Shown here piece by piece: positions 1 through 61,559 of a stretch of 64,000 nucleotides of DNA; positions within the stretch are counted from its first letter, which is position 1, and the number at the start of each line of letters is the position of its first letter. Position numbers and translations under genes: made by a program. The DNA lies in NCBI GenBank assembly GCA_002633005.1, contig NMRA01000242.1:470868-534867 (forward strand), given 5' to 3'. The stretch comes from Phoronis australis. Taxonomy: Eukaryota; Animalia; Phoronida. The notes under the pieces were generated by a model. It was not told the origin of the DNA. It ran no database searches and saw only the letters and a program-made list of their open reading frames with translations.

Positions 1-789
1 CTTTGTCACTGTTGCGACTCACAAAAACCTCTTGAGCATCTATGCGGGGTAGTATCTCTAATTCAACGACCTTTAGGCTACTCTTATTCCCATTCGACTC
101 GTCAACGTCAATGACTTGCAACTCGGGAATTTGAAAACCGATCATGTTTCGTTGGTCCTCGGGAAAACTTTCTAGAACCAACAGCCTGAAATCTTGAGCA
201 TTGCAGTCTAACGTAATACCTTTAATTACGCCGTCCGTTTGAATACCCAAGTGAACTGTGCCATTCTGAAAACTGTTCAGGCAGGCTGCAATTGTAGACA
301 CTACGTCGCTCAATACCGCCTTGTCAGTAAGACCGCCAGTGCAAGGAATAAAGCTGTGAAAATGTGCCAACATGCTGTGTTCACAATCCGACAATGGATA
401 AGTCTCGCCAAGAACATAACCTAACTTTTGTTCAGTTTGATCGCAATGTGTGGATGTTGGTATTTGAACATATTCCTGCATTTTAGGACTCGACCCAACA
501 ACAGGTGAGCAGGAACTTTGTGTGCAAGACACTTTCAATTTGTGAAATCTTTTCTCTAGTTTTAATATTTTCCCAGCTGGTAAATTGGGGTTGAAAGCTT
601 TAATGGATGAAACGCAGTTTTCCTTTTCCATTATATGACAGAACGCCTCCCCGTCTATTTCCTCTGCCTCGAATATACTTGCTTGCTTCTCATGGAGACC
701 GCATTCGTCCACAAGCCACTGTTTCACTTGCAGCGTTGTTTTGCTGCTAAACTTGTCCCACTCCGTCTCCATTGTTTCTGCTGCTGCTG
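1..789 (-). CDS. SAMD9/SAMD9L-like gene A, main exon (5' part only: SAM + AlbA_2; runs off the left edge of the window)
   Basis: Hand translation from ATG at 772 is open to base 1: METEWDKFSSKTTLQVKQWLVDECGLHEKQASIFEAEEIDGEAFCHIM... (SAM) ...LAHFHSFIPC...VLSDVVSTIAACLNSFQNGTVHLGIQTDG...ESFPEDQRNMIG...SSLKVVELEI. It is colinear with the 27803 ORF. The acceptor is a poly-T tract + G(CAG)5 at 778-804. Absent from the ORF track because there is no stop in the window. Confidence 0.93.
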
Positions 790-1879
790 CTGCAAAAAAA
801 AAAACGAAATAACACAAGGACTTGAAAGATAATGTTACACTGTAAGAAGCCTTGCATGAACATCAGGACTCATTATGTGCATTTTAACGCATGATGTTCA
901 TGTTAACTCATTATGTAAATGAAATTCGTCTCCGTTCATTTTGTGTTCGTAAACACCTGTGAAGTTCGCTATGATTCATTAGTCGTCTACATTTAAAGAT
1001 ATTATGTAAGGTTGTTTAAACATCTGTAGGCCTACAGTGGTTTATTTTAGGCTTTAATCTCAAAGCAGGTTTACATTTCACAAGAGAGATCTATTTTTTA
1101 CATCTGAATGTACTCGACTTTCAAAGAAGCACAGAATGGAACCAACTATGCTTTTCCGGTTTAATCCGCACTACTTTTATTTAAATGGATTAAGTAACGA
1201 TTGGATACATGTAATGGAGAGGGATCGCGTTTTCATGACACCAGCTTCGAAGTTTTGCTAAGGAACATTTTACTGTGACAATTCATTTCGTCAGTACCAA
1301 ATGACAATTATCTAAAACCCCCTCGACCCACGACCTCGTCGACCCATATCCCCCCAATGCACGACCCCCTCGGCCCACCACGTAATTGCACAAAGCCGGG
1401 TTCGGCTCCGTCAGGTTATCGACTCACCTTCCGCTTCGCTGGGGCTGGCTAGTATTAAGAACACTGTAGGCCTACAAACCGCAGAACCGGCACAACTGAG
1501 TAGCAGCAGACAACCACACGTTTCAAATGCACCATAAACAAGGCGTAGGCCCCTATATACTCGAAACAGGAACACTGCACCTTTTCTGAAAGAAACGGCA
1601 GACGGACCTCCGAAGCACCCAAAACAGACTGATGCTCCTTTCGTCCCATAGAAGGACAGGAACGCCGACGACGGACAGGAATCGCGAACGATTTTTCATT
1701 TTGACTACTAGGCCGGGAAGTTGGCACACGAGCTGCCACGCGCTCTGTGTGCACGAGACCTGCTGTGCGGAACCAGAGGGTACACCAATGTATTCGTACG
1801 CTGTAACAATGTCTCATGCAACAAAACTCAAAATTCGAATTTATTTCATCAAGGCATGGGCTGTGCAGCACTGAAATAA

Positions 1880-5270: not shown

Positions 5271-5565
5271 CTGTGACTTCACAAACTCTAGGAGGCGTTT
5301 CTTCAAGCTTCGTAGTCAAGTACTTGCAGTTGCCAGTTGTCGTCAGAATTTCAAGGAACTGTGAGTACGCTGTGGGGCCTCTTGTGGGCAATATCTGTAA
5401 CAATAACTCATTCTTGGCCTCTGTAGATTTTTTAGCAGATATCCTGTTCCAATCTTCCCGATAAATGACATCACTGGAGAACAACTTTTGAATTACTTCA
5501 TGTGGTATATCGTTAACGAGACTTTGATGATTGTGTTGCAGCCTCCATTGATCTTCTTCGTTCAT
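5271..5565 (-). CDS. CARD (death-fold) exon of SAMD9-like gene A
   Basis: MNEEDQWRLQHNHQSLVNDI...LFSSDVI...NRISAKKSTEAKNELLLQILPTRGPTAYSQFLEIL has the CARD pattern (L..LP.RGP.A+..F...L). Acceptor TTTTTAG lies 7 nt before the ATG; donor ACAG|GTGAGC at 5271/5270. 295 nt = phase 1, in frame with the 789 acceptor. Confidence 0.88.
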
Positions 5566-13448: not shown

Positions 13449-15988
13449 CAGGAACTACAAATTCCTCCCATTTACGACAAGGTGGTACTTCCAACTCAAC
13501 AACGCCGGGAACAGGTGAACAAGGGCCTGAGTTGCAGCCTCGAAACGTTATGCTTACCTAACTTATAGTATTCTAGTAAGTACCTTCTCTCCTTTTTACC
13601 ACCATGACAGAAGACGATGATGAATTCTGAACACTTTTAAGGCGAACATGGACATGATGTCCTCAAAACCCTTTGTAAACTCGAAAACATTACCAAGACG
13701 TTAGCGACTTGGAAAAATCATAGCAATTTCAACATCCGTTGTTCCCGCTGTAAACTCATTCCGAACTGTATCCGTCTAACATCTACGGTCAAAGGATTTC
13801 GTGCCAAAATCCTTCGCAAGTCTGAGACGAAATTATTCCAAATTTGCATAAGTCAGTGCAATTTCACCATCAATCAGCTGAATTTCGAAAAGGAAAAACT
13901 AAGATCTCAGAAGGGAAGTGACATCATTTCTTCAGACTGCGCATGAATACACATTTTTCTCCTCAAAACAACAACAACGTGAAAAGTTTGACCAGTTGGT
14001 GTCTCGACAAGTTCCCTCAAAGATCGACAATGAAACCCGTCAGAATTTTGCTGAGAAGTGGGTTGTTAATATCCCAGATCACCAGCTCACCAAACCACAA
14101 CGATCTATACTCAAAAAAGGTTTGAATTTCCCTGTCACTCCCACGCGTGCACGGAAAATGCCGCTGGTCGATTACCACCCGTCGAAGCAGCCCAGCTTCG
14201 TAACGCTGTCACCCGTATCGTTAGGTATGCCAAACCTCCCAAGCCCAATGCCACCTCAGCTGAGAGGAAAGCCATCTCTGAGGTTCGTTCCAACCACAAC
14301 AGCAAGATACTCCCAGATGGCAAGAGAAAAGCCACTGTAGTTATTAAACACTTCGATGTATCAGGAGAAGATTGGGGACCTGTTATCGGACTCCAATCAC
14401 CAACAAACCACTTTCCAAAGATCCCACCAGCAAGTACTTTAGTCAATTAGTGAATATCCTACCATTAGTGATAGATTGTATTGAGAACTATATCCTGCCT
14501 CGGAGGATCCACCAAAGATGTATGGTTCACCGAAAATACATAAGCCCAACACCTTTCTGAGACCTATTGTGTCGTGCTGTGGCAGTATGACCTACACGAC
14601 TGCTAAATATTTAGCTAAGATACTTTCTCCCCTTCATGGTAACAACCCTCACAGCGTCAATAACAGCCAAGACATAGTCGACAAACCTCAAGATCTGGTT
14701 GTCACCCCTGGCAATAAATTCATTTCGTACGACGTCAGCGCACTATTCACGAATGTTGCAGTCCACAAGGCCCTTACCATCATACGACAACGTCTAGAAA
14801 AGGACTCTTTGTTACATTTACGCACCGAACTTTTCGTCAATCAGGTTTGCCAACTCCTTGGGTTTTGCCTCAATACCACGTATTTCCAAAGCTATGACAA
14901 CTTCTGCCAACAATATCATGGTGCAGCCATGGGTTCAACTGTGTCCCCGATTGTCTGTGGCATCCACATGGAGGATTTCGAGGAGAAAGCTCTCGCCACT
15001 GCTTCGTCTCGACCTTTATGGTTAAGGTATGTTGATGAGACGTTCGTGTTACTGCCTGAGTATGACATTGACAGCTTTACACATCACATTAGCAGTTCAT
15101 ACGATAACATATTTTTACCATGGAAGCTGAGGCTGCCGATTGCCCTTCCTAGACCTATGTGTGCACGTGAAAGACGATGGTTCTACCAAGTTGACAGTAC
15201 ATCGCAAACCTACCCACACCGACCAATATTTGAACTTCAAGTCCAACCACCTTGTTCAATACAAACAGTCTCTTGTGAGAACACTACTGAACCGTGCAGA
15301 AAGATACATCACTGAGGACAAGGACAGGAAGAGTGAACTTCAACACATACACCGTGCTTTGAAAGCCAACGACTATGAGGTATGGGCAATGAGACTTAGT
15401 CATAATCGCAAATCTACCAGCACTAGTGATGACAGACATAGGATAATCGGTAAGATACTGTATATCCTGGTTTGTCCGAAGAGCTACTCCGCGCTTTTAG
15501 AAGACGTGAAGTCAATACTTATTTTAAACCCATCAACACTCTCCGCAGTCAACTGGTTAAACCTAAGGAAGTCACCCTACTTGAGAAGCAGTTGTGTGTT
15601 GTTTATCAGATCCAAAGTGACCAGGATCCTTCCCACACATACGTCAGTGAGACCAAACGTACTCTCGGCACTGGCTTTGCTGAACATAAAAAACTGGACA
15701 AACCCGCTGCTATCGGAGACCACTTGCTTTCTTCTGAACCACACCGTCAATGTCTGCAACACTAGAGTTCTATCCAGGGGGGAACATTGGCACTCCCGCA
15801 AGATCAAAGAGGCCATTTACATTAAACAATGCAACTCCCACTCAACAGCGACCAGGGATTACAACTTCCTCCCATTTACGACAAGGTGTTACTGCGGGTG
15901 TTACAAGGTGTTACAACGGCGGGAAGATCAGTCATGCGAACAAAGGCCTGAGTTGTAGCCTCGAACCGTTATGCTTACCTAACTTATA
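13449..15988 (+). mobile_element. Penelope-like retroelement (RT + GIY-YIG), near full-length but frameshifted, flanked by direct pseudo-LTRs
   Basis: [54 protein letters not shown] and a decayed GIY-YIG (VVYQI...YVSETKR...EH). The 3' end is repeated at 13449-13567 and 15853-15988. Confidence 0.92.
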
Positions 15989-16465
15989 TGTGCTGTTTGT
16001 CTATTCTGTATTTCTTAGCTGAGTATAGATGGCGCTGTATGTTCAGTGTTGTAACAAGTTGTCAGGGAGTACTCTATTAGTTCGATTTTCTCAGTACACG
16101 TGTCTTGCCACGAGACCTGTTTGTCTCCTCTCTAATTAAATCCCACGTACATAACATGTAGACCGGGATCCCAGAGCTTTTTTCAAAGGCTGGTTATCGG
16201 GAATGATTTGGGCCGTAAAAGTTTCCGCGTTTTTTGTCATTGGTCATTCCAAGCCCTGATTAAATTAAGCACCATGTGCATACGTGATCTGGAAATATGT
16301 TCAATTTTATCACAAGTCTGAAAACCAGTTTGAGCGATAACTAAAGATCAACCATTTCACTTTTTCTAATCTCATTTTTGTTGACGTTAATTCAATTGGC
16401 AGTAGCATTTTTTTATTGTGTCGCCCCCCTTCTGTCAAGTAACAGTCCTTACTATACATTGCCAG

Positions 16466-18183
16466 TGCTGTGTTGGCTTCTAAGCTGTTCAAAGAGAGAC
16501 TGAACCTGATTGGTAAGGTGGGCTGTGGCCTGTGTGTGGTGGGATCTACTGTAGTGGTGATACACGCGCCCAAGGAGTCGGAGGTAGAGAACATGCAGGC
16601 ACTTGCTGATAGGATGAAGGACGCAGGTACAGTTCACTACCGCATGGTCACACTTGCTCTTAATAATGGGATTTCCCACAATTTTAGTGCCGTTCTTGAG
16701 GTTCCATGTACCCCTAATTGTTGTCTTCCTGTTAGTAACCAGTAGCTCAGCCCATAAAGGTATGTATTTTTGAAACTATGAGGCGGATTTTTCATGCCTT
16801 TCACGATGCTGCTACTCTTGTGATGGTATGGTCATGCATTTGTCAAAACTATATCTGCACTAAAATTTGATAAAAAGACTCAAAGACCTTTTCAGTGTTT
16901 CCCCATAAATTGAGATGAGTGACGTCGGTGTTTGCATTAGCGAACGATTTCGACTTAGATTGTTTTAGATGTTAGGACTTCCCTTATTAAAAGTGGTTCC
17001 ACTTTTTAATTCACCATGCTTCTCTAGAGACAGTTACTTTGGGAAACATGTTTAACCTTGTGCATTTAGGATTCAAAGTAGGGTATTTGTAAACGTAATT
17101 TAACTTGTTCTATCAGCTCAGAGATGCTTCCTTGAATTTTCTCAGAGCTTGGTTGTACACCCAAACTTAATGAGCTTACATGAGTTGTGTTTTCCATATT
17201 CAACTATGTGTTTTGTAGTAAGGTTTGAAAATATGCTTGTTTTTGAATGGAGCCAATTGAAATGTTGTCAGTCATTGGCGTCAGTTGTGAATTGTTTCTC
17301 CAACCTAGCAGTGTGAGAAGTGTTCCAGCGTATGGTGAGGGGTGTGTCTGTAAAATATCGAGGTGTGCCAGCGTGTGGTGAGGGGTGTGTCAGTAAAATA
17401 TCGAGGTGTGCCAGTGTGATGGACGTGCCTGTGCAGTGTCAAGGGTGTGACAGTGTTGTGCTGTGCTGTTTTTTGATAGTTAGTGATTAGCGCTGGTGGT
17501 ACATAGTGTATTATAGCTGTGATTTGTCTTGTTCTGCAGGCTTCATTACTTATGTGTTCATCGTGGCCATCGTCAGTGTCGTGCTCATCTTCTATTACAG
17601 TCCTCGCTACGGCACGTCCAATGTGCTCATCTAAGTCTCCATCTGCTCTGTCATTGGTTCGCTTTCTGTCCAGGGTTGTAAGGGCCTTGGCATGGCCATC
17701 AAGCAGACATTCGCGGGTGAGCAGCAGTTTACCAACTGGCTGACCTACCTATTCCTGTTCCAAGTTGTATTCTGTGTCTCTATATAGATCAACTACCTGA
17801 ACCGAGCACTCGACGTCTTCAACACGTCAGTGGTGACACCTATCTACTATGTATTCTTCACTACATTCGTAATCATCGCTTCTGCAATTCTTTTCAAGGA
17901 GTGGGGCAACATGAGTGTTATTAACATTATGGGGACCATATCTGGATTTCTGACTATTGTCTGTGCAATATTTTTGATTAATGCATTTAAAGACATGGAC
18001 GTATCTCTGCGTAACTTACCAAAGGCTAGGAAATCAGAATCACCCATTGTAAACTCTACGTCAAATGGGGGAGTGTCATATTCCAGACACGATGAGACTA
18101 GTTTACTAGTGACCTCTGGTGGCGAGGAAGAAGAGGAAATCAGTGGTATAGAAACGTCATTTAGTGTTGTTCAAAGGAGATGA
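16466..18183 (+). pseudogene. NIPA2: NIPA-family Mg2+ transporter (NIPA2-like), last two exons only (16466-16626, 17540-18183), with two premature stops
   Basis: ERLNLIGKVGC..GSTVVVIHAPKE and [26 protein letters not shown]...AILFKEW are NIPA signatures. Canonical GT-AG phase-1 intron. TAA at 17632-17634 and TAG at 17785-17787 replace conserved Tyr and Gln. No upstream NIPA exons recognised. Confidence 0.9.
17320..17415. repeat. ~43-bp intronic tandem repeat (2+ copies)
   Basis: GTGCCAGCGT(A/G)TGGTGAGGGGTGTGTC(T/A)GTAAAATATCGAGGT repeated. Confidence 0.8.
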
Positions 18184-22775: not shown

Positions 22776-25700
22776 TTAACAGGGCAAATGCAGTTTCAAA
22801 TGGAAGTCACGGAAACAATTTGCTTTAATTTCATAATGCTTTGTTCTCTGAGAGATTGAGAAAATTCGTGTTTTGACTTCATGAAACATACCGTGTTCAA
22901 CAGCGAGTGAGTCCTTGTGTGTTTGGTTAACTGAAGTGAACACGGAACTGAGCAAGATGTTCTGAGGCGTGTACATACTTTCACTATTGTTGCAGACACA
23001 GCAGTGAAATTCTCTTGCGATTGTATTAAGGGTTTTACTGGTGCTGCATATAACCCAACACAACTGAATTGTAGTAGCCATAAGTGCTGACGCAAACCTA
23101 CCTTTCCGACCACGTTTAGCCTGCGGATGTTGATCTTTTTTTGGAGTCGACGACGTCTGGTGCGAACAAGAACTTGTAGATCGTGAGCTCGATGCTGTAG
23201 GATTGGCTTGATGTTCAGCCCGTGGGGATGCACCTCCGACTACCTGACAAAACGGTTCGCCAGACCTTGCTTCGCAAATGGGTGTCTCTTCTGCGGAAGA
23301 ACTCACGCTTGACGAGGATGGTTTCAATATACCGTAAGCTACGGGACCGGACCATGTGATTCCGATGTAAAATTTCACTCTCTTATGACGCCACGTATCG
23401 AAAGAAACTGGCACTGCCGAAGGTATCTTTAAAATCTGGTCGCGAAATGTTCCATAAAAGAACTCGACACTGTCCAATTTGTCGGTCATTCTTCCTTCGA
23501 ACTGATTAAGTAGATCTTTAACTTCACCAGATACCCAGAAGTTCTGTCCATGGTAATTGGTTTTAAATTTGGAATGGTGAACAAAACGTTCGATTCCATC
23601 ACCCTTTGCAAGGAAAAATACAGTTTTCTGTTTTATTCCGTAGAATTGGTGCTTGCTTTTCGGTGGATATTTCTTGTCATAATCGTTTTTCCAGTATTCT
23701 ATCACACGATTTAATGGTGTAGGTAGTCGCTGCTTGTCTTTGTCACCAAGGCTTGGCCAGTTTAGCATCACGTAGAACAAGTATGGTTCCAGATATATTC
23801 CACACTGAGAGATGGTTGTTCTTTGCTCAAATAAGTCATGGCTCCATTTTACCAACACGTCGTAGCTGGGTTTTAAGGTGTTCAAACTTGTTTCCAATAT
23901 ACACGCGCGAGTGATGTATGCGCCCAATAGAATCAATAGATCCATAGAATTTTTGAATTCTGATTTCCAGTTGTCGGACATCAGTTGACACACGTCTCGC
24001 AAAACATTGTTTGCCTCGACTTCTTTAGTTTTGGACATTTGTACCATAGCGGAAAAGGAGTTACCACAAAGTCTGAGCGCCCGCCTTCTCCTGTATTCGG
24101 ATTTTCCCAACTCTTCAAGCGAATCCGGTACTTCATTTTTGTCTTCACCAAAATAGTATTGCAGATTTTCCTTCACTTTCGCAATTTCCATTTGCATGGA
24201 CTTTTTCTGGGCAAGCTGTACGTTATCAAGATACTCCTCTCGAACTTGAGTTTGAAGTTCTTCTACAACTACAAGCGTCTCTTGGACGGTTTGTCCCAAC
24301 ACCTTCAGTTTTTGGACTAGTTCATGATTTGAGTTTTGCCAGCATTGTACCGAATCCGGATAATAGTCATGTTGAAAAAAGAACTTCCGCAAGTCTTCGT
24401 CACACAATTCCGGGATATTCTGCAAAAACTTGAGCAGTCTGTTGATAGTATCAAGCTCGCCATGATATCCCGCCATGTTGGTAACACCTTGATAACTGCC
24501 CGGCAGGCTGTACCGTTGAGCTTCTTTGAATGCAGTTATGGCATCAAATGCACATCGTATAACATCCAAAGCAGGTGCTATCGTGTGATCAGATTCTCTT
24601 TGAACCTTTAAGGCCTTTACCAGTTGTTGTTTATAAACTTGACCGTATGTGTCATGCAAATACGAACTTTCTGGTCTTTGCTCCAGGCCAGCCTTGGCAT
24701 AATATAATGCTCTCTGATGATTATGATCATTGTAGCTATCTGTCTCGGAATACATAAAAAACCTTGCTATCTGTTGAGCAATGAATGGATCGTTAAAAAT
24801 CTTGTAGCCTTTCTCGAGAAGATCGGCAGCGATCTGATGCGACTCTGCGTTCATCACGTGGTCAATCAGTGGTGCATACTTAGATTTGTGGTCCAAACCT
24901 TCTTCCTGGACACGCTTTTTAAGAACATCCCGCACTATGTCGTGCAACGGTTTCATAAAGTAAGTAGACTTCTGTGTAATCTCAGTGCAGTCAAGTAGTT
25001 CGTTGCAAATTTCACTCACTGTTTGTTTCTGTGTAAAGGTGTCAAGAATTTGTTTCGCTAGAATTCTGTTGCACGCAGTTATCCCTTTGTAATTGTTGCA
25101 GCGCGTTTTGCTCACTAACAACTTCCAAGACTCACTAGCTGTTCTTTCCCACTGAGGCTGACTTGAAAGATGGGATCGTTGACGCCTAGGAACCGTTACA
25201 CCAAAGCTATAACTATTTGGTTTATGATTGTAAGACATGATTTGATCAAAGGCACACACAGGGACAGGTCTGAAGTCTTGATCAAAATAATTCAGTAGGG
25301 ACACGTATTTGAGTATCATACGTTCCGCTGTGTCTGTCATGTTACCGAGAAGATTTTCAACGGTGCCCTTGATTGCATCCTTGTTAAAGCTAGTCTTCAT
25401 AATGTTGAAAGAAAACAAATACCTTGGATCGAAACCTCCTCTGTTTTTGTACTCTAGTTCAAGCTCTTCATATTTCTTTCCAAACCAATCCAATTCTTCT
25501 TTGTACAACTGATGTCGGAGTGCAAAACTTTCACCTGCCGGAATTGTGGTTTGGCGTCTACATATCAGTAGAACCACACTGAATCTGTTAAATGAACTTT
25601 CTTCGAAGTTTTCATCTTCTCGTTGGTTTTCTCTCTCCTCCCATTGTTGACGTTTTGCTAAAGTTTCCAGTTCTGTCCTAAGTTGTCTGATGTTCTCAGG

Positions 25701-27811
25701 ATCTTCATTGTCCAACAGCACAAGAACTGGCCGTGTTTGACTTTCCCGTTCTTCTCCAAAAGTTCGCAGTCTGAAGACATGCTCGCTTGTCTTAGAGGGA
25801 GATATTTCTTTCGCCACTGCACACCGATACCTTTTTCGGAGTTCCCATAATACATGACGACTGCTAGTTGTAGCTCCCGCACCCGGCTGATGATAAAAGT
25901 TGATTATTCCAACACAATCTCCGTCAACATTGTCGGATGGCTTCCCTCCCAACGTCTCTTCAACGAATTTAAACAATTTCGAGTGAATGTGACGTTGACA
26001 AACATGTTCATAGGCAAAATTTTGCCAACTAACTTTCCCTCCTTTAAAAAAGCGAGTCTCTTCTTGTCTCTTCCAGTAACTGACGTCTTTGACTTTTGTC
26101 AATTTTTTTAACTGTTCTTCACATTCATCCATTCCTACAACTTCTAAAGAAGTAAGGTCATTCTGTTCCTGAAACGTGATTGCCCCTCGCGAAGACGGTA
26201 TTTTGCAGATCACATTTAGCTTGGGCTCATGCAGCAGTTTTACATATTCTGAAAACAGATGCCAGGGAATTCCCGCGATGCTTTTACGAAGTACAACCCC
26301 TTCCTTTTGATACTTTCTGTTAATCACTTCCTTATTCCACCTGTCGAGCAGTTCCTCATCTTCGCAAACAACACACCAATGGTTTGGAAATGCCCTGTCA
26401 AGTTCGGTGAAAATTTCCAGCATGATCTCAAAATTTGTTGACAACAGCGCGATTATAACCATGGCGCGAGTGCTAGGGACTTCTTTTTGCAAGACACTGA
26501 TGATATTTCTGAGTCCGTCTGTGTATTGTCTTCTCCACTGTACCGGTTCCTCTATCCCCGTTTCTTCGTAGCCGTTCATAAATGTCCACGGAGTATAATT
26601 TGAGGCCAGTATATGAATATCGTCGCGATCAATGTCGCCAATCTTTTTGATAGAAATTGATTCGCCTTTGCACATGAGATATTTGCAAATCTCAGCGCGG
26701 TTATCGAAGTCAAAAACTGCAGACCACTGGATCGCGTCAACAAACGAGTATCGGTCGGCTACTTCCTCAGACGATGGCCTTGTGTCCGGTAAGGAATTAG
26801 CAACAAGTATAGGGAACATTCCGTCATCAATATGATCATTACCTAAAGTCATAAAATCAGCTAGTTCGCTAAATTTTTCTGAGAAAAACGATGGAGGTCT
26901 TCTGTCTCCCCCCTTTAAGGCCATTTCCCTAGCTTTACGCCAAACAAATCTTTCCTTTAAAAATTTTTTTTGTTTAACTGAAACAAGTTGTTCAACTTTA
27001 CCGCTTTCCAAAACAAAAAAAATCGAACTCTTGTCTTGCTCGAAAGTGACGAATATTTCTTGATTGTCCACGCTTGGTGTGATCCCCAGTTCTATAACTT
27101 TCAGACTACTAACGTTTGCCTCTGAGTCCTCCACGTCGATAAAAACTAGCTGGGAGATTTGCGCACCAATCATCTTTCGCTGGTCTTCTGGAAAACTTTC
27201 CAGAATTCGTTGTCGTAAACAATATACATCGCTCTCTAACTGAATACCATTGACTGTACCATTGGTATGAACACCCAAATGAATTATGCCATTCTGAAAA
27301 GCGTTTAGACAAGCCGCAATTGTAGAAACCACTTCTTTCAAAACCGTTGCGTCATTAAACCCGTCTGCACAGGAATTGAAGTAGTGAAAATCTGCCAATA
27401 AATCATTTTCAGGGACCTCAGGCAGAGAATAACGTTTGTTATGTACGTATCTTGAATCTTTTCCAGATTTGCCTCGTTGACGAAAACTCGGAACTTTACC
27501 ACGTTCCACGTGTTTGCGAGCAGGTTCCACAGCTTGTAAAGGGGAGTTAGTAGACTTTGCCACCAGCAACTTACTGAACTCGTCGTCTAGGTTCAGTATT
27601 TTTCCTGCAGTTAAATTGGGACTAACAAACTGTTTAATGAAAGCATCACGGTTTTCCCTTTTCATCAGTCTACAGAGAGCTTTTCCGCTTATCTCCTGAG
27701 ACTCGAAATCCTGTGCTTGTTCCTCACTGAACTCACAAGTGTCTATTAGCCATTGTTTCACTTCAAGAGGAGTTTTTGTCGCGAAGTCACACTCGGTTTC
27801 CATCGAGTCAC
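22776..27811 (-). CDS. SAMD9/SAMD9L-like gene B main exon: SAM - AlbA_2 - SIR2-like - STAND P-loop NTPase - TPR - OB fold (1675-aa ORF from ATG 27803)
   Basis: SAM (EVKQWL...FESQEISGKAL); AlbA (AACLN..NGIIHLGV); SIR2-like (PILVAN..WSAVFDFD, WTFMNG); Walker A YHQPGAGATT..HVLWELRKRYRCAV; Walker B PVLVLLDNE; TPR (PFIAQQIAR, SYLHDTYGQVYK); C-terminal KVKFYIGITWSGPVAYGI-type motif. All match SAMD9 family motifs as I recall them. Acceptor TTACAG|CAG|GTGACTCG-ATG. Confidence 0.96.
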
Positions 27812-29082
27812 CTGCTGTAACAGACGGTGTGACACATTGACATTAAAATCAACGATACTGCTACTTCTACTGCTACTACAAGTACTGCTACTGCTGCTGT
27901 TATTGCAAAATGATATTAATAATAGTAACAGTAGCAATAACAGTGATAATATTACTTACCATATGAAGCAATGAAAAAAGGAAAGCGCTCTGAAAAGCGA
28001 CACTTGGTGAAAGAAATTAAAAATTTAAAGGTGATGTCGACGACAAACCAAGAACATAAACAATCATGACCCCTACACTAATACGATATGAATCGTGATC
28101 TGGAGTGTGCGAACAAAGAAGCAAACACAAAAAAAAAAAACAAAAAACAAAAGTGCATCAAAAATCAGTCATCAAAGGAACAGCGTCACGAGAACATTCC
28201 GAATAATAAAAAAAGAGATGTCCTGGCGAAAAATGAAAGACATCTTCTGAAAGCCCGCTCAAAACTCTATCGGAGTAATTTAAAAAATCCACACAATTTT
28301 CGAAAAATTTCAAGTTTTGCATTTTTTTAAAGTGAAAGTCAAATAATTAAAAACTGATGTCTAAGAAAAAATTGTTGGTGTTCATTTGAAAGGGTATACC
28401 TTATAGTATTAAAATGCAAAAAATACGTCATTTACTCTTCCTGTTCAAAATAGCACCCCAGCACGATTTGAAAAATAATGAAAATGCCTCAGATCCGCCA
28501 TTTTGAAAACAGGTTCCAGTCAAGCAGCATTTGACAAGAGCTACTGAGCTAAAACTAATACATGGACATTTTGGAAGCAGAGTCTCCAGTATTTGTGAAC
28601 AATTAATTAAGGCATGCCACAATGTTCCACAATGATTTTACATATAACGTCGGACTAAATTACAACAATCATTTTCGAAATATCGTCTACTGACCGCACA
28701 TTCGAAAGCAAATGGATTGCACAAATAACCTAGGCCATTTTTTCTACAAACGAGAACGGTAAGCCTACCCTCTAATCCATATTATAAATCTGTTATGCCA
28801 GGTGTGCTAAGCTCTGTCTCGAACTGCTAAAACTAAACTATTAGGTCATGATAAGTGCTGTCTCTGAGGACGGAATAGCAATTCCTCCAGGATGGGATTA
28901 CTTACCAATCTAGATACACTACATAGAAGGACCCTGAAAGAAATTTACTTTCAGTGCCTCGAAATCTGTTGAAGCAATTTATTTCGTAGCAGATATCGAA
29001 CACTTAAACACCTACCACAGGAACAGCAATGGTCGATAATATTGTGTTCCAGTCAACATTTCTTTCTGTGTCACACACTCAC

Positions 29083-29374
29083 CTATTTTTTCACAAACTT
29101 TCGCAGGAGTTTTGTCAAGCAGGTCACCCAGGTACTTGCAGTTGCGGATGGTCAGAATCTGCCGAAAGTTGAGATATGCACTGGGGCCTCTGGTAGGCAA
29201 TATTTGCAACAACAGCTTGTTTTTGTCCTCAGTGGCGTTTTTAGCAGAAATTCTATTCAGGTCGTCCCTATTAATAGTACCCTTAGAGAACAACTCTTGG
29301 ATAACTTCGTCAGGGATGTCGGAGATAAGGATTTGGTGATTATGCTGCAGCTTCCATTGCTCTTCTTCGTTCAT
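29083..29374 (-). CDS. CARD exon of SAMD9-like gene B
   Basis: MNEEEQWKLQHNHQILISDI...LLLQILPTRGPSAYLNFRQIL. Acceptor TTTCAG lies 7 nt before the ATG (same spacing as gene A); donor ATAG|GTGAGT at 29083/29082. 292 nt = phase 1, joining in frame to 27811 (or 27814). Confidence 0.9.
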
Positions 29375-29743
29375 GTTGTTGCTGAAATTAAGAAGATCGA
29401 AAGCATCAGTAATTTAAGAACACCCTTCAAGGTTTTGCTTACCTTTGCAATAGGAAATGAGAGTTCCAATCTTAGTACACTGATACGTGTAACGTTGAAA
29501 TGTCACTGGACAATTATATGAATTATAAGGGACTCTTAAAATCGACTAACCTTTATCCGTACCCGCATTAAAGTTTCCTCCGTCGAATTGCGCCACTGGT
29601 AGGGTTACCTATGATTACAGGCCTAAGTATGACGACAAAGCATGACTAGCGAACATGCATGGAGGGTCCGGTACTGATTGTCTTTCCTATTCTGAAATGA
29701 CCCTTTCAGAGAAATCAGCTAATTTCATTGATCTGTGACTTAC

Positions 29744-30250
29744 CGAGAGGGGTTTTCTAAGAAATACGCAGAAGTTTTCGACCCGTTCTATCTCGCGCCT
29801 GATTAGGTTTGACATGTGAAAGAAATTAAGGTTGTGTACTATTAGAAGAACGAAATAGTAAAGAGGAACGCCTCTATACGATATAAAAGGGGTCGAATTA
29901 GTTCTAGACTAAACTGCGTTTCCTCAAATACGACCGTTTCGCCTTCCCTGCAAACAACAGGCTGGGAAAATCCGGGGAAAACCGACCCAGTGGTAATTCA
30001 GTGGTTATTTGCCTAGTCTCGAAACCAAACTAATCGCTTAGTTCAGTGCTTTACCCTGTCAAAACTAGTTTACATTTTAAAGGCTCTTTGCACAGGCCTC
30101 TTTTGTGAGGCATCCTGATTGTCAGTTCTGAAACCTGATGTCGTCAAAAATCCGTTTAACCGTTTAAATAGACCATGTTAGTCTCCACACACAAAGCAGT
30201 CCTGGTGGCGGGGAGCGGAACTATCTGACGAATTTCGACTCTTAATCTAC
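29744..30250 (-). promoter_or_regulatory. Putative promoter + non-coding first exon of gene B
   Basis: Donor G|GTAAGT at 29744/29743; GGGAAAATCC-GGGGAAAACC at 29964-29983; conserved with 9347-9870. Confidence 0.6.
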
Positions 30251-33200
30251 ACCACGGCCAACCCGCGATCGAGAACGCCCGGAAGACTATCGAGAACGAA
30301 ATTTGGCGCGAGAAGCGAAGCCAGGCAAGGTGAGTAAATTTGATGAATTTTCGTTGTTTTTACTTCAAATGTGAAAACAGAGACATGAGTTCAAGGCGTA
30401 ACACATTGAGGAGGGGCAGGTAGACGTTTAGGCTAGTGTCTCTTCCAGTCATAAGAGAAAAGTTACGTTAACCGAGGCATCCCATGAGCCGAAGGTGATT
30501 TGTATGCCATTTTGGCAAATGGCAGTTAATTTTGGCACTAAATCAATAAATTGACCATGAAGTTATGAAGAAATGACGTGTAAAAATATAACGCAATGCT
30601 TGTTTTTTGTAGCTTTGTCAGGATCTCTGATTTTTCGAAGCTTTTCTGTTGAAAGATAAGCGATCGAGAACGCAAATTTGTGTTTCGTTTATGCGATCGA
30701 GAACGCATCGTGGTGTGTCGAACAATAATGAACTTTTTACCTATAAAACGTGAAAAAGTTACAAAATAAATGTTGTGCAATGAATTAATCACATTTTGCG
30801 TCCTTACTGTGTTACTGATCAACAGCATAGCATATTTCCATTAAATTGCCATGAGCACTACATGTACATGAAGCATAATTTTAGTTTCACAAATGAATTT
30901 ATTTTCATTTCAGGAAACAAGTTCAATGTTATTGTGAGGCGAGCTTCAACGAACATGTTACCCACGACGTGAAGGTACACCTCTCCAGGGTTTTGAAATA
31001 CAGACATTACTTTTATTGGAAACGACTGAGAACAAAGGGTTCTAAACTGAAGACTCACCCAGGAATTGTTACATGTGGCCTGTCAGACAGGGGTAAACAA
31101 ATTGTTGCAGCAGATGAAAGTATAGAATCTTCTTGTAAAAATGTGACAGCAAAAGGAAAAAACAAATAGCCAGTGAAGTCAAAGAATGATGATGTGCTTG
31201 TCCATGGGGAGCGGGAGGAGTGTGGCAACACCATGCACGAGATGATTCAAAGATTCCCATTCATAAACGTCTGGGATCTAAAAATTGGTCAGAAGTTGTG
31301 TAAACTGATGTGCTGATAAAATGGGGAGATTTCACTTGATGTCTTACTGATAACATCCATACAGAGATGAACAGATTGACTTGTGGCATCCGTGTGGCTT
31401 GAATACCTGTGTACGTTTGTGTTTGACTCTTCTGTTTTATTCTTTTGGTCCAAGTTCACCTGCATCATCAGTTCATGATCTCCAGTTCATGTGACATTGA
31501 AAACGATTGAGACAGGTATATATAATACATGTACTATAGTATGATTTTCTCAAAACGTAGTGAACATGTCGTCATTAAGGTCACTTGAACTACACACTGT
31601 ACAGGCCCGTAGCCGGGGGGGGGGGGGGGGGGGNGTTCGATCGAACCCCTCCCGCGAAAAAGGTCCAGCCCCAGCATATCCATTACGGTAAGGATATATG
31701 TCAATTAAATCAGTTTTTGGCCACAGTAATATTAAAAAACTGGACAATAGCCGCACAGATAAAAAAGTTCATGTTCAATTCAATGTTTCGTCTTTATCAT
31801 TAGACACCATCAGGATCATATTTACAACAATTTAGGACAACAAGTGCCAACATACAGCTCAGGTAACATCCAAAAAGTGAAGTGAGAGATACAGAGAATA
31901 TAGTCAGTAGCTGGTCATCACCATAGTTGCAGGGTCACTGAGCTCTGCATGTTATTCAGAGAATCAGTGGCATGCTGGTTCTGAATGGCCAATGACTCTT
32001 TAATGTACAGTAACTCCTTATTAGGTTCTCTACAGATAATACCAACTGAATTACCTTGGTGATTGTTGCTAACAAGAAAGAAGACATTTCACAACCGTGT
32101 GTTCGTGTACTGAGAAAATCCAGCCGACGAGCACATTCACATTTTTTCATATTATTTGGAAAATGTAAGTTTAGACCTAATAAAAACCGTTGGTCAATGA
32201 ATAAGTCTCCTCGTTTAAACTGTTGTCAATAGCGCACGACCTTGCACACTTCATACGAGCTGCAAACATGATGGGATTTGTAAGGTTACATGTCACTACG
32301 CAGAAGGTTCACTACAACTCCAAAGGTTCTCTGCTCCGAAGGTCTACTACTCCGAATGTTCACCATTCCGAAACCAGTTTCCATCTCCAACAGTTAATTA
32401 CTATGAATGTCTACTAGTGAAGCAGAACTGACATGCATAAAATGTTATATTTGTGTCCATTTAGTAACCATGCATGGGCGGGGCTCCATAGGGGGCTGGG
32501 GGGCTATACACCCACTTTTTTCAGTGGTGCGCCGCCCGTGTGAAAAAATTGAATGGGTCTTAAAACATTGATTGTATTGTATCTAAAACGACTCGTACTC
32601 AAACAGGGACATCTGGGGCACGGGGATATTTTATTTCACGGATGCTACGACTAATGGGCGGCTTTAAATTTGAGGACACCGAATGTGACTCTCTGACACG
32701 GTAAAGACTTCCACGGATAGGGTAGTCTACTGCATTTATTTTCGACCCCGCAGTCATGCACGTAGTTCCGGTGCGGCGGGTGAAGTAGTGGATAAATTTC
32801 TCAGTCTCGCTGTGAAACGATCATGGACAGCGCCCGGGAAACGCCACTTACTTCAGTCCTGCGCCGCACATGAGATGGGATCTTGACATGGATGTTTAAA
32901 TGCATCGTGGTTGATAATTCATCAGTATTCCTACTTCATATTCTTTTAAATATGCAATTACGTATTAATATTTTTGTATTAATAAAATAAGAAACCCAAA
33001 TTTTGTGTATTAGTACCCGGGCGTTGTTACACCGGCCACTGCGTCAAATAACCGAAATATCGTCTATTTTACATATGTAAGCAAAAAAATTACACCTGAG
33101 TCTGAAATTTCATATATTTTTGGAGTTGTGAACCTTCTGAGTAGTGATTTTTCGGAGTAGCGGGCTGATCCCATTTCCAACATGGTGCAGAATTCTGAAA

Positions 33201-33925: not shown

Positions 33926-35240
33926 GTAAGTAAGTAAGTAATTTTTTATTATAGTGACATGTGTTCAAATGAATTTAAACAATGAATACGTCACAAACAC
34001 CAGGAACACCCAGCCCTCCACGGGCCTTATAAGTCACTTTAGATACATGATACAAAAAAGAAAAGACAAGTGTACGCACATTGCAAGAGGACCAGAAAGA
34101 GAAGGCCGAGATAAAAGTGATCATAAATAAATGTAATTTTTCCTTACTTCAAAAATATTTTTGATGAAAACTGAAGTTTTTCTAATAACATCTTTTTGCA
34201 TGATTGTAATTAATTTACTTTCACAGCTTTCTGCACGGAATCGTGGATATTTAATCTCAACTTAACAATAAAAGGTGTTTCTGGCATCTAAGAAAAACGG
34301 ACACTCAAACAGGAAATGTAATTCAGTTTCGACCTGACCAGTATGACAAAGACAGCAAATTCTGTCATCAAAATCTAGAGAACGAAAACGCCCAACCTCA
34401 ACCAATAGCTGTAGGGTTCCGGTTCTTATTTGAGCAAGAATTGACCTACTAGGCCGAGTTAAGTCTAAATGCACGTAAGGCTCAACTTCAAAGACATTCT
34501 TCATCAAAACATAGGTTCTTAACTTTGGTTTCGAACGGCTTTCAAACAACCACCTATTACATGCTAAATCATGCAAAATATTCTCACAGTGAGACAGATT
34601 AACTGAACGAAAGTCATGAAAACAATCCGAAATCCCTAATTCTTCAAAACTGCTCAAGACTTCAGACGACCAATTATTAGTACAAGTAGTGTAGTCCCAC
34701 CAAAATATTCGGTATGTTAGTCTATTATCCTCGAAATTAATATTACGATTCCACATTCTCAAAAGCTCAATTTTCCGCCTAACACTGGGGAATTCCCACC
34801 CCATGTCACCCACAACAGCATGATTAGGAGCGAATTTGTGAACGCCCAAGAAAAATCGCGCGGCTCTATTCTGTATAACATCAGAATCCTGTAGACTAGA
34901 GCCGCCCAGACAACTACGCAATAATCTCTAACATACACAACACAAGCACTGAATAATGTAGTGAACGTTCTGCACCTCATATTTTTATTCTTTTTAAATT
35001 TATTAATTAAAGCGCCCAAAGCTCTTCCGGCAGATTCGGATAGAGTTTTAGCAGTTTCAGAAAACTTCAAATGTTCATTTATAATTATTCCTAAATATTT
35101 ATATTTGGGTACATATTCTAGGTCTAGGCGACCCAACCGAAATGGATATAAACTACGCGAGACATGCTTGGATCTGAAGTGAATAACATTAGTTTTTTCC
35201 TGATTGACAATTAGCCTCCATTTAGAGCACCGAAGCATTT
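33926..35240 (-). mobile_element. 5'-truncated LINE (RTEX-like) with C-terminal CCHC region and (TTAC)n tail
   Basis: KWRLIVNQEKT, YKYLGI, SKPKLRTY, GR...RICCLC..VETELHFLFEC; one frameshift; AATAAA then (TTAC)4 at 33926-33950. Confidence 0.8.
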
Positions 35241-35579
35241 CTATTATACTATTTTAATAGTATAATTGGGCAATACTTACATACTTAAAAGTATGTAAGT
35301 ATTGCCCAATGACAAGTAGTATGGCCATTTAAATCTACCTAAATATTACAAAATGATCCTTTTGAAATAACACAAATATAGAAAGAAACTTGAGGAAAAA
35401 GGGTTCAAAACAATATGTCAAAGTACTTATCACATCAGACAACTACCAAGCTTAAACTCTGTAAATCTTAATACTGAAACTATAGTGACTTGACAACCTT
35501 CACCACTGAACTTAATGATTTCATTCATGACGTTTCTGCTTGCTATGCCTGTAGAAATAGGCATACTGTTTGCATAACA

Positions 35580-59867: not shown

Positions 59868-60252
59868 TTATTATGCGCCCACATATTTATATGTGGACGC
59901 ATTATGCCGTCATCTCCGTCCGTCCGTCCGTCCGTCCGTCCGTCCGTCCGGGCGGCGTCCGGCGTCTGGCGTCCGGCGTCCGCTGCTCTATCTCCAAAAC
60001 CCTTTGACATACGTTCATGAAATTTGGCACATATGTTCCATTCATGAATGGGACGGCATGTGCGAACTTTCGGACGGATCCGACTACCGGTGTGCCCCCT
60101 AGTGGCAATTTTAGTTTTTTACGCTTACCTTTGTATCTTCAAAAGTCCTGAACGGATTTTCATGAAATTTGGTATGTAGGCACCTAGTAGTGAGATGACG
60201 CTATCCTGCCGTTTTCAGATGGATTCGACATAGTTTGCGCCACCTAGTGGCC
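59868..60252 (+). mobile_element. Helentron-associated interspersed element (HINE/DINE-1-like) 5' end
   Basis: TTATTATGCGCCCACATAT-TT-ATATGTGGACGCAT hairpin, then a (CCGT)n microsatellite, then ATGAAATTTGG-containing internal repeats running into the gap. Confidence 0.7.
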
Positions 60253-60594
60253 NNNNNNNNNNNNNNNNNNNNNNNNNNNNNNNNNNNNNNNNNNNNNNNN
60301 NNNNNNNNNNNNNNNNNNNNNNNNNNNNNNNNNNNNNNNNNNNNNNNNNNNNNNNNNNNNNNNNNNNNNNNNNNNNNNNNNNNNNNNNNNNNNNNNNNNN
60401 NNNNNNNNNNNNNNNNNNNNNNNNNNNNNNNNNNNNNNNNNNNNNNNNNNNNNNNNNNNNNNNNNNNNNNNNNNNNNNNNNNNNNNNNNNNNNNNNNNNN
60501 NNNNNNNNNNNNNNNNNNNNNNNNNNNNNNNNNNNNNNNNNNNNNNNNNNNNNNNNNNNNNNNNNNNNNNNNNNNNNNNNNNNNNNNNNNNNNN
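60253..60594. other. Assembly gap (342 N)
   Basis: Seen directly. Confidence 1.
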
Positions 60595-61559
60595 CTATGC
60601 TAATCTCGTATGTTGGTAAATTTGTTTTTATTCTATGTTTCTGTGGTGCTTTAAGCAACTGGTGTATAGGATGTGCTTGTATTATGAAGATTACTCACAT
60701 TTTGCCCCTAGCCTATTGAGGAGACAATGACCATGCCTTTCCATTTTGCTAAGTACAACATACTACATATATGCTCTCTACTGGCCACTTTGTGGTACCA
60801 ATAAACAACCCTAGAAGGATACCGTATGCGGTGCAATTGTGGGCGCATTTCAACGCTCTGCGTTGCTCTTGTTATGGGAATTCTTTGAAGTAATTTTCCG
60901 GAAAGTTGAGGTTCCGAGGTGCCTGGTATGAGTGCCTTTGTGGCCGTTTTAGAATCCCTTGATGAAACACGGCCGGTAGTCCAGTTTCTGATTGCTGGGG
61001 GAAAAGATACAGAGTGTGTCCCAAAAATTTCACACTTCAACGTCTGGAGTTCAAATTCAGTTCCCGTGGGTAACTGAGAGTCTACGCAGGCCTACCGCAT
61101 GGTTATACCTTATTTTTAACGCGGGTATGCTATGCATGCGCGCACCCAGGGGGGTGGCTCGGGGGGCTCAAAAGTGGGAAGAAAGGTCCGCCTCAAAGAA
61201 ACACAAAATCCGAGAAAAACGAGACAAATCAACTAAGGAAGGAATTCGGCGTATGCACAATTCATAGCCCTAAACTAACCCCGTATTCCGTTTTTTCTTT
61301 AGTAAAAGGTCCACATCCTCAAGCAAAAGATTCCGTTTTGAAGAACAAAAATTCAATGCGCAATACTACTGGAAACAAAACATCAAGGGTGTGCAAAGAA
61401 AACCTTTCCAATTTGATGATCAATGAGTTTAAGTACTTTTAAGTACATCGAAAAAAAAGTTTAAAAACTTTTTTTTCGATGTACAGTTTGTTAACTTAAA
61501 CCCAGTACATCTAGTTCCTAAGCCAATAAAAAATTAATGTCATTTGAATTGTAAGAACA

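What the first reader, a model, noticed from the sequence alone, without database searches (positions are those of the whole stretch)
22776..29374. CARD-SAMD9 fusion: a SAMD9-type STAND sensor with an N-terminal caspase-recruitment domain
Seen: a 292-nt CARD exon (ATG 29374, donor AG|GTGAGT) joins in phase 1 to the acceptor 8 nt before the SAMD9 ORF ATG, reading ...KI-G-D-S-M-E-T-E-C. Gene A has the same exon layout, splice phase and ATG spacing. Known: vertebrate SAMD9/9L start at SAM and act through the AlbA_2 tRNA nuclease, whereas CARD+STAND is the layout of NLRs and Apaf-1, which oligomerise to recruit caspases or adaptors. Inference: a ~1770-aa CARD-SAM-AlbA-SIR2-STAND-TPR-OB receptor that couples SAMD9-type pathogen sensing to caspase or NF-kB signalling (an inflammasome/apoptosome-like SAMD9). 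I do not know of this architecture being characterised, but I cannot search to confirm novelty.
Basis: partly seen in the sequence, partly recalled or inferred. Interest (0 to 1): 0.92.

Follow-up and report, generated by a model that had tools for sequence, protein, structure and literature searches.

The report
CARD-tipped, nuclease-dead SAMD9 immune receptor
An animal gene splices a caspase-recruitment (CARD) exon onto a relative of the human antiviral protein SAMD9 whose RNA-cutting site has lost key residues, so it likely signals through protein partners instead of cutting tRNA; the fusion itself was described in 2017 and is common in molluscs.

Summary
The fusion is real. The 292-nt exon is a CARD (Pfam E 1.9e-8). 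RNA-seq joins 29083 to 27814, not 27811 (5 reads, 1 of 4 runs). Exon 2 folds like human SAMD9 (E 2e-40). The fusion is not new: Mekhedov et al. 2017 (PMC5445408) list a Lingula CARD-AlbA_2-SIR2-STAND-TPR-OB protein and propose the apoptosome-like role. CARD-SAM-AlbA_2 occurs in 18 of the 150 best relatives, the named ones all molluscs, and in an annelid model. What this work adds: the AlbA_2 domain looks catalytically dead (E196, D241, K198, K214, R221 lost). A tree splits the family into a vertebrate-type clade (18 of 23 with all four acidic residues, no CARD detected) and a group with all CARD-bearers (0 of 85 intact). Six paper searches showed no report of this. Best reading: the CARD has replaced the tRNase as output; untested. 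The C-terminus is probably spliced at 23102, so the length is uncertain. No earlier scan note held both SAMD9 and CARD.

The parts
29083..29374 (-). Gene B coding exon 1: CARD (97 codons plus 1 nt, phase-1 donor)
   Evidence: Pfam CARD E 1.9e-8; nearest solved sequence RAIDD CARD, E 6.6e-5; stranded RNA reads
27815..29082 (-). Intron, 1268 nt, GT..AG
   Evidence: 5 junction reads from 4 starts in run X2
27588..27782 (-). SAM domain (exon-2 residues about 8-72)
   Evidence: local SAM profile E 6e-9; helical domain with pLDDT mostly 75-95. Pfam itself does not report it
26920..27500 (-). AlbA_2 (tRNase-SA-like) domain with a degenerate active site: E184 and E218 kept; E196, D241, K198, K214 and R221 replaced (Y, T, N, T, S)
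   Evidence: Pfam AlbA_2 E 0.006, below cut-off; alignment to 7ksp and 9o0d; Foldseek TM 0.75 to 7ksp by target length; positions
23102..26919 (-). SIR2-like, STAND NTPase (Walker A His at 25892, Walker B Asp at 25712), TPR and OB region, then a low-complexity tail
   Evidence: model of exon-2 residues 1-1200, pLDDT 85.6; Foldseek to human SAMD9 9zjr E 2.3e-40. The OB part was not modelled; it rests on tblastn of P0027 to 23328 and the terminal motif at 23363
22776..23101 (-). Read-through end of the ORF, probably the start of an intron; the downstream exon was not found
   Evidence: donor-like AG|GTAGGT, contig break and depth drop in X3, none in X2
29576..29950 (-). Likely 5' untranslated exon(s) of gene B; an acceptor-like site lies just before 29381
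   Evidence: stranded reads in X2 and X3, none at 29475-29575, no joint listed; sequence
5271..5565 (-). Gene A (paralogue) CARD exon, 295 nt, phase 1
   Evidence: Pfam CARD E 1.9e-10; 67% identical to the gene B CARD; junction not tested
2..789 (-). Gene A exon 2 start: SAM and degenerate AlbA_2; runs off the window

Best explanation
This is a spliced, expressed SAMD9-family gene with an N-terminal CARD and a degenerate AlbA_2 nuclease site, and it likely works as a cytosolic immune receptor that clusters its CARDs to recruit a caspase or adaptor instead of cutting tRNA. Shown: the splice, the domain order, the SAMD9 fold, the kept ATP-site residues and the lost tRNase residues. Inferred from human SAMD9 (PMC13600222): an ATP-bound closed state that opens on a pathogen or stress cue and oligomerises through SIR2/SIR2 and OB/SIR2 contacts. 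Inferred here: oligomerisation gathers CARDs where human SAMD9 gathers tRNase domains; the partner is likely a caspase-2/CED-3-type initiator caspase or a RAIDD-like adaptor; the AlbA_2 fold is kept as a scaffold or ligand-binding module.
For: Splice seen in reads. SAMD9 fold over about 930 columns. ATP site kept: His and Thr of the SAMD9-type Walker A and the first Walker B Asp. Human E184, E196, E218 and D241 are each needed for cleavage, and K198, K214, R221 for tRNA binding; gene B keeps 2 of the 4 and 0 of the 3, and gene A has lost E196 and K198 too. Tree of 161 cores: one split with support 1.0. Vertebrate-type side: E196 in 22 of 23 scored AlbA_2 domains, all four acidic residues in 18 of 23, CARD in 0 of 60. 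Other side: E196 in 7 of 85, all four in 0 of 85, CARD in 24 of 101, and 0 of those 24 intact. Flanking structural residues are kept on both sides. A separate parallel: 11 of 11 fish hits with a PYD label have no detectable AlbA_2. The CARD's nearest solved sequence is RAIDD.
Against: No partner, oligomer or activity was shown, and no caspase of this species was in hand. The CARD/dead-nuclease link rests on one deep split, so it is one event and not 24. 77 of the 100 database sequences on the degenerate side show no CARD; some are single-exon gene calls, but annotated CARD-less isoforms exist (Ostrea P0189 and P0190). 15 SAM-SIR2-STAND proteins on the vertebrate-type side lack both AlbA_2 and CARD, so nuclease loss does not need a CARD. 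E218 persists in 52 of 85, two proteins keep E196, E218 and D241, and a looser search finds an acidic residue within one position of D241 in 42 of 81. Rabbit SAMD9 stays active after losing R221, and D241 is Asn in some mammalian SAMD9L. Human SAMD9 has been seen only as monomers and dimers, not as an Apaf-1-like wheel. The RAIDD match is one weak hit over 51 residues.
Confidence: 0.5

Rival explanations
1. The CARD is an input or decoy. It docks the protein on an upstream CARD platform (RLR/MAVS-like or a caspase) or baits a pathogen effector, and the output comes from the STAND core or another partner.
For: CARD is common but not universal on the degenerate side (24 of 101); CARD-less isoforms are annotated; relatives also carry HEPN_DZIP3 or AIG1 domains, as integrated domains would.
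Against: An N-terminal death fold on a STAND protein is the effector position in Apaf-1, CED-4, NOD1/2 and NLRC4 (established knowledge). With the tRNase site lost, no other effector is evident in gene B.
Confidence: 0.2
2. These expanded, nuclease-dead paralogues are sensors or regulators that act through a nuclease-active SAMD9 in the same cell (a sensor-helper pair), with the CARD as an accessory.
For: Oysters have both types: an intact-site member in a Crassostrea cluster (P0128) and a CARD-bearing degenerate one in Ostrea (P0045). Human SAMD9 activates through asymmetric dimers. The window holds tandem paralogues.
Against: The two oyster examples are different genera. No intact SAMD9 was seen in this window and no genome is held. 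The two types are only about 22-25% identical.
Confidence: 0.15
3. The AlbA_2 domain is still a nuclease with a rewired site or a new substrate, and the CARD only localises or regulates it.
For: The fold is well kept (TM 0.75 to 7ksp); E184 and E218 remain; rabbit SAMD9 shows that the site tolerates change.
Against: The catalytic columns vary freely on the degenerate side (E196 column: R, K, N, Y, H), with no conserved replacement seen at the seven positions scored. E196 is strictly conserved in about 370 mammalian proteins.
Confidence: 0.12
4. The CARD-bearing transcript is a minor or non-functional splice form, and the working protein starts at the exon-2 ATG.
For: The junction was listed in only 1 of 4 runs; exon 2 has its own in-frame ATG before the SAM domain.
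Against: In X2 the junction count (5) matches the depth on both flanks (3-4). Both paralogues keep an open CARD exon in the same phase, and full gene models in molluscs and an annelid have the same fusion.
Confidence: 0.03

Closest known systems
CARD-bearing invertebrate SAMD9 proteins of Mekhedov, Makarova and Koonin 2017 (PMC5445408), e.g. Lingula anatina XP_013415988.1
   Same: N-terminal CARD, then AlbA_2, SIR2-like, Apaf-1-like NTPase, TPR and OB; the same proposed apoptosome/inflammasome-like role.
   Different: The text says death folds occur instead of SAM and the Lingula rows list no SAM; here CARD and SAM are both present (Fig. 1 of the paper was not seen). The paper predates the tRNase work and does not address the active site. 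It is computational only.
Mollusc and annelid SAMD9-like database proteins (Potamilus KAK3591479.1, Mytilus VDI65140.1, Argopecten XP_069113691.1, Ostrea XP_056004003.1, Haliotis XP_067662871.1, Littorina XP_070195880.1, Ridgeia KAK2174874.1)
   Same: CARD-SAM-AlbA_2 order, a degenerate tRNase site, and 28-33% identity to gene B for those scored (Ridgeia judged through its cluster-mate P0030).
   Different: 16 of 18 have a 97-148 aa linker between CARD and SAM; gene B has about 15-20 aa, like P0103 and P0123. No functional study turned up in my searches.
Human SAMD9/SAMD9L (tRNA-Phe anticodon nuclease; PDB 9zjr, 7ksp)
   Same: SAM-AlbA_2-SIR2-STAND-TPR-OB order and fold, and a Lys-less Walker A with an upstream His.
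   Different: No CARD. Needs E184, E196, E218, D241 and K198, K214, R221, of which gene B keeps two. Second Walker B Asp is Asn here, as in 56 of 68 aligned sequences.
Apaf-1/CED-4 apoptosome, NOD1/2 and NLRC4, and the PIDD-RAIDD-caspase-2 platform
   Same: CARD on a STAND core; the CARD is closest to RAIDD among solved sequences.
   Different: No NB-ARC or NACHT Pfam hit, no WD40 or LRR; extra SAM, AlbA_2, SIR2 and OB domains; wheel formation not shown for any SAMD9.

Membership tests
SAMD9 family (Mekhedov 2017 core) | AlbA_2 domain | tested here: met
   Pfam E 0.006, below cut-off; model matches 7ksp with E 1.1e-6, TM 0.75 by target
SAMD9 family (Mekhedov 2017 core) | SIR2-like, STAND NTPase and TPR core | tested here: met
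   Foldseek to 9zjr E 2.3e-40 over 933 columns; family profile to 9zjr E 1e-256
SAMD9 family (Mekhedov 2017 core) | Lys-less Walker A (GGT/S) with an upstream His | tested here: met
   His638, Gly643 and Thr645 of exon 2 kept; the middle Gly is Ala, as in 9 of 68 aligned sequences
SAMD9 family (Mekhedov 2017 core) | C-terminal OB fold | tested here: inconclusive
   Not in the folded part and no Pfam hit; tblastn of P0027 runs to 23328 and the motif at 23363 resembles the human C-terminal stretch printed
tRNase SA (human SAMD9/9L anticodon nuclease) | Acidic residues E184, E196, E218, D241 | tested here: not met
   E, Y, E, T in gene B
tRNase SA (human SAMD9/9L anticodon nuclease) | Basic tRNA-binding residues K198, K214, R221 | tested here: not met
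   N, T, S in gene B
tRNase SA (human SAMD9/9L anticodon nuclease) | Cleavage of tRNA-Phe | not testable with these tools
   needs a bench assay
CARD (death-fold superfamily) | PF00619 above the curated cut-off | tested here: met
   34.6 bits (gene B) and 41 bits (gene A) against 23.9
CARD (death-fold superfamily) | Six-helix bundle | tested here: inconclusive
   Single-sequence model forms four helices; top matches are CARDs with probability up to 0.99 but E >= 0.4
NLR / Apaf-1-type receptors | NACHT or NB-ARC domain with canonical GKT/S | tested here: not met
   no such Pfam hit up to E 0.1; the Walker A lacks Lys
NLR / Apaf-1-type receptors | Ligand-driven oligomer that recruits a caspase or adaptor by CARD-CARD contact | not testable with these tools
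   no partner sequence of this species in hand; needs a bench test

The most novel reading that the evidence does not exclude
The animal SAMD9 family split early into a tRNase-active branch and a large, mainly mollusc and annelid branch whose nuclease died and whose output moved to a RAIDD-type CARD. These would be an unstudied class of invertebrate caspase-activating receptors, and fish PYD-SAMD9 proteins would be an independent repeat of the same effector swap.
Probability: 0.4. Interest if true: 0.68.

Novelty: new member of a known kind. Interest (0 to 1): 0.42.

Why it matters
The architecture and the apoptosome idea date from 2017, so the fusion alone would not surprise a specialist. The 2017 idea appears untested, and since 2023 SAMD9 has been read as a tRNase. 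The split found here (intact site without CARD against degenerate site with CARD) gives a sharp test of whether one sensor chassis drives either translation shutdown or caspase signalling. It also points to a large candidate receptor family in molluscs and annelids, and this locus gives an RNA-supported gene model to start from.

Tried and rejected
No genome is held, so paralogues, an intact SAMD9 or caspases of this species could not be sought. The run search listed no RNA holder by index; three raw-read runs came by species label and were laid. The first lay (12 kb, likeness 88) was swamped by repeats and did not list the junction; a narrower lay did, which left gene A untested. The word-based protein search gave mostly fish proteins (26 hits). 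A search with the CARD exon among longer proteins found nothing at E <= 0.001, so a single origin of the CARD fusion is not established; the window CARD does match the CARDs of 11 relatives at E < 0.01 in a local search of 175 proteins. tblastn of 48 relatives' C-terminal tails found no downstream exon in 1-23330. The D192 column was not used, because the lungfish reference has Glu there. Support values printed after midpoint rooting were shifted on some nodes, so they were re-read from the unrooted tree; gene B's place within the 101-sequence group is weakly supported (0.22), so the organism's phylum was not fixed. No complex prediction was sent: no partner was in hand. Rejected: chance adjacency (junction reads, two paralogues, many full gene models) and a categorically new architecture (published).
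Full report
Observation. The window has one long minus-strand ORF, 27842-22776, of 1688 codons stop to stop. A 292-nt exon from ATG 29374 to 29083 ends in AG|GTGAGT and joins it in frame at either of two tandem acceptors, 27811 or 27814. The exon is a Pfam CARD above the cut-off, as is the matching exon of gene A at 5565-5271. A model folded without an alignment forms four helices, and 9 of its 10 top PDB matches are natural CARD chains, none at E <= 0.001. Among solved sequences the best match is the RAIDD CARD, E 6.6e-5 over residues 23-73.

Splicing. Four public runs were laid on gene B: three raw RNA-seq runs from one study, read at 18-19%, and one contig set. Gene-body reads in X2 and X3 all lie in one orientation, as expected for minus-strand RNA in a stranded library. 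On 26950-29950, X2 shows 5 reads from 4 start points that skip 1268 nt between 29083 and 27814; the other three runs list no joint. That length is doubtful. A donor-like site lies at 23102/23101, an X1 contig matches only 23101-23212 in the pieces shown (171 pieces were hidden), and X3 depth drops from 5.9 to 0.2 there while X2 does not drop. The next exon was not found. Gene A has the same phase and an in-frame join, but was not tested with reads.

Anatomy. Exon-2 residues 1-1200, folded with a 68-sequence alignment, give pLDDT 85.6. The model matches human SAMD9 (9zjr, E 2.3e-40) and, separately, the tRNase domain (7ksp, 9o0d). SAM is found by a local profile (E 6e-9) but not by Pfam. The OB end was not folded and rests on sequence matches. 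The ATP site keeps the upstream His, the Walker A Thr and the first Walker B Asp that the human structure paper names. I assigned these positions, and a likely Sensor-1 Arg, by motif resemblance and not by a direct alignment to the human chain; the position I take for the WHD His is Asn here.

How common. A search of 1.84 billion representatives gave 518 hits, of which the best 150 were listed. Of 29 top hits scanned (4 skipped from that range), 9 carry an N-terminal Pfam CARD. A profile built from these and the two window CARDs calls a CARD in 24 of the 150, and 18 of the 150 have the order CARD-SAM-AlbA_2. Pfam confirms 18 of the 24; 4 were scanned and not confirmed, 2 were not scanned. The CARD-bearing hits with names are bivalves and gastropods. 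An annelid full model (Ridgeia, P0195) has CARD and SAM, while two unnamed members of its cluster start at SAM. Single-exon gene calls therefore hide the CARD, and 24 is a lower bound. The window's organism was not fixed; its closest relatives suggest an invertebrate (inference).

Literature. Mekhedov et al. 2017 (PMC5445408; parts 1-2 of 4 of the text and supplement 1 read whole, supplements 2-3 only as search hits, Fig. 1 not seen) state that SAMD9 proteins from other animals carry CARD, Death, Pyrin or FIIND domains. They predict apoptosome- or inflammasome-like particles and list Lingula XP_013415988.1 as CARD 78-162, AlbA_2, SIR2, Apaf-1-like NTPase, TPR and OB. Passages were read in PMC10246899 (tRNase residues), PMC12331169 (their conservation in mammals), PMC13600222 (structures), PMC12680541 and PMC13245274. 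Six searches (listings only for other papers) showed no functional study of a CARD-bearing SAMD9 and no report of a degenerate site in invertebrates. The library lacks most subscription papers, and unseen figures or supplements, above all the alignments of PMC12680541 and Additional file 3 of PMC5445408, could bear on this.

What is added. Human E184, E196, E218 and D241 are each required for tRNA cleavage, and K198, K214 and R221 for binding. Aligned to 7ksp and 9o0d, gene B has E, Y, E, T and N, T, S at these places. Human numbers were set from the 7ksp chain by one offset, which puts six of these seven residues on the right letters; E184 was read from the rabbit alignment. In a 113-sequence AlbA_2 alignment, with lungfish P0004 as reference, gene A has also lost E196 and K198. 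A FastTree tree of 161 SIR2-to-TPR cores (160 of 175 database proteins plus gene B; 15 dropped by the length filters, listed) has one split with support 1.0. The side with vertebrate, amphioxus, hemichordate and one oyster cluster has 60 sequences: 23 with a scored AlbA_2, 18 with all four acidic residues, and no CARD detected. The other side has 101: 85 with AlbA_2, none with all four, and 24 with a CARD. Structural positions around the site are kept on both sides. Inside the vertebrate-type side, 11 of 11 fish proteins labelled PYD have no detectable AlbA_2.

Against this reading. It is one split, not many independent pairs. Most sequences on the degenerate side show no CARD (77 of 100), CARD-less isoforms are annotated, and 15 proteins on the other side lack both domains. 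My CARD profile would miss Death or DED domains on the intact side. D241 loss is not clean when a one-residue shift is allowed (42 of 81 keep an acidic residue nearby, though gene B does not), two proteins keep three acidic residues, and rabbit SAMD9 shows that the site can tolerate change. Human SAMD9 has been seen as monomers and dimers only; higher-order assembly is a model.

Mechanism and verdict. The most likely reading (0.5) is a SAMD9-type switch that, once opened, clusters its CARDs and recruits a caspase-2/CED-3-type caspase or a RAIDD-like adaptor, with AlbA_2 kept as a non-catalytic module. Rivals are the CARD as input or decoy (0.2), a sensor-helper pairing with an active SAMD9 (0.15), a rewired nuclease (0.12) and a minor isoform (0.03). 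It belongs to the SAMD9 family, fails the tRNase test, and would work like an NLR or Apaf-1 without being one. It is a new member of a described but apparently untested kind: interest 0.42, rising to about 0.68 if the effector swap is shown. Earlier scan notes held no finding with both SAMD9 and CARD and no look-alike stretch; 8 of 32 SAMD9 notes were shown.

Noticed in passing
window 16443-16700 and 17791-18180 (+): Exons of a NIPA-type magnesium transporter gene (Pfam PF05653, E 1.5e-17 and 1.4e-26) lie on the opposite strand between the two SAMD9-like genes.
   Followed up: partly
window 14485-15958 (+) and 34262-35253 (-): Broken retroelement remnants (RVT_1 E 2e-6; weak zf-RVT).
   Followed up: no
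window 23102 (-): Probable 3' splice donor after the low-complexity tail of gene B; the downstream exon, and so the true C-terminus, is unknown.
   Followed up: partly
window 780-792 and 27811-27814 (-): Both genes have tandem CAG acceptors (several in gene A, two in gene B); only the upstream one was seen in gene B reads.
   Followed up: partly
window 30327-30912: A 584-nt GT..AG joint in reads of the opposite orientation to gene B (X2 6, X3 2, X4 12 reads), suggesting a + strand transcript head-to-head with gene B, or a transcribed repeat.
   Followed up: no
proteins P0124, P0157, P0068, P0113, P0138, P0005: Further add-on domains in SAMD9-like relatives: HEPN_DZIP3 in front of the CARD (P0124, weaker in P0157), a C-terminal AIG1 GTPase (P0068), ubiquitin-like domains (P0113, P0138), and a CARD label on a carp protein (P0005).
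   Followed up: no
proteins P0007-P0024 (11 fish hits): SAM-PYD SAMD9-like proteins with no detectable AlbA_2, a possible second case of death-fold gain with nuclease loss.
   Followed up: partly
window, about 60250-60595: An assembly gap (344 N in the window), 31 kb from the finding.
   Followed up: no
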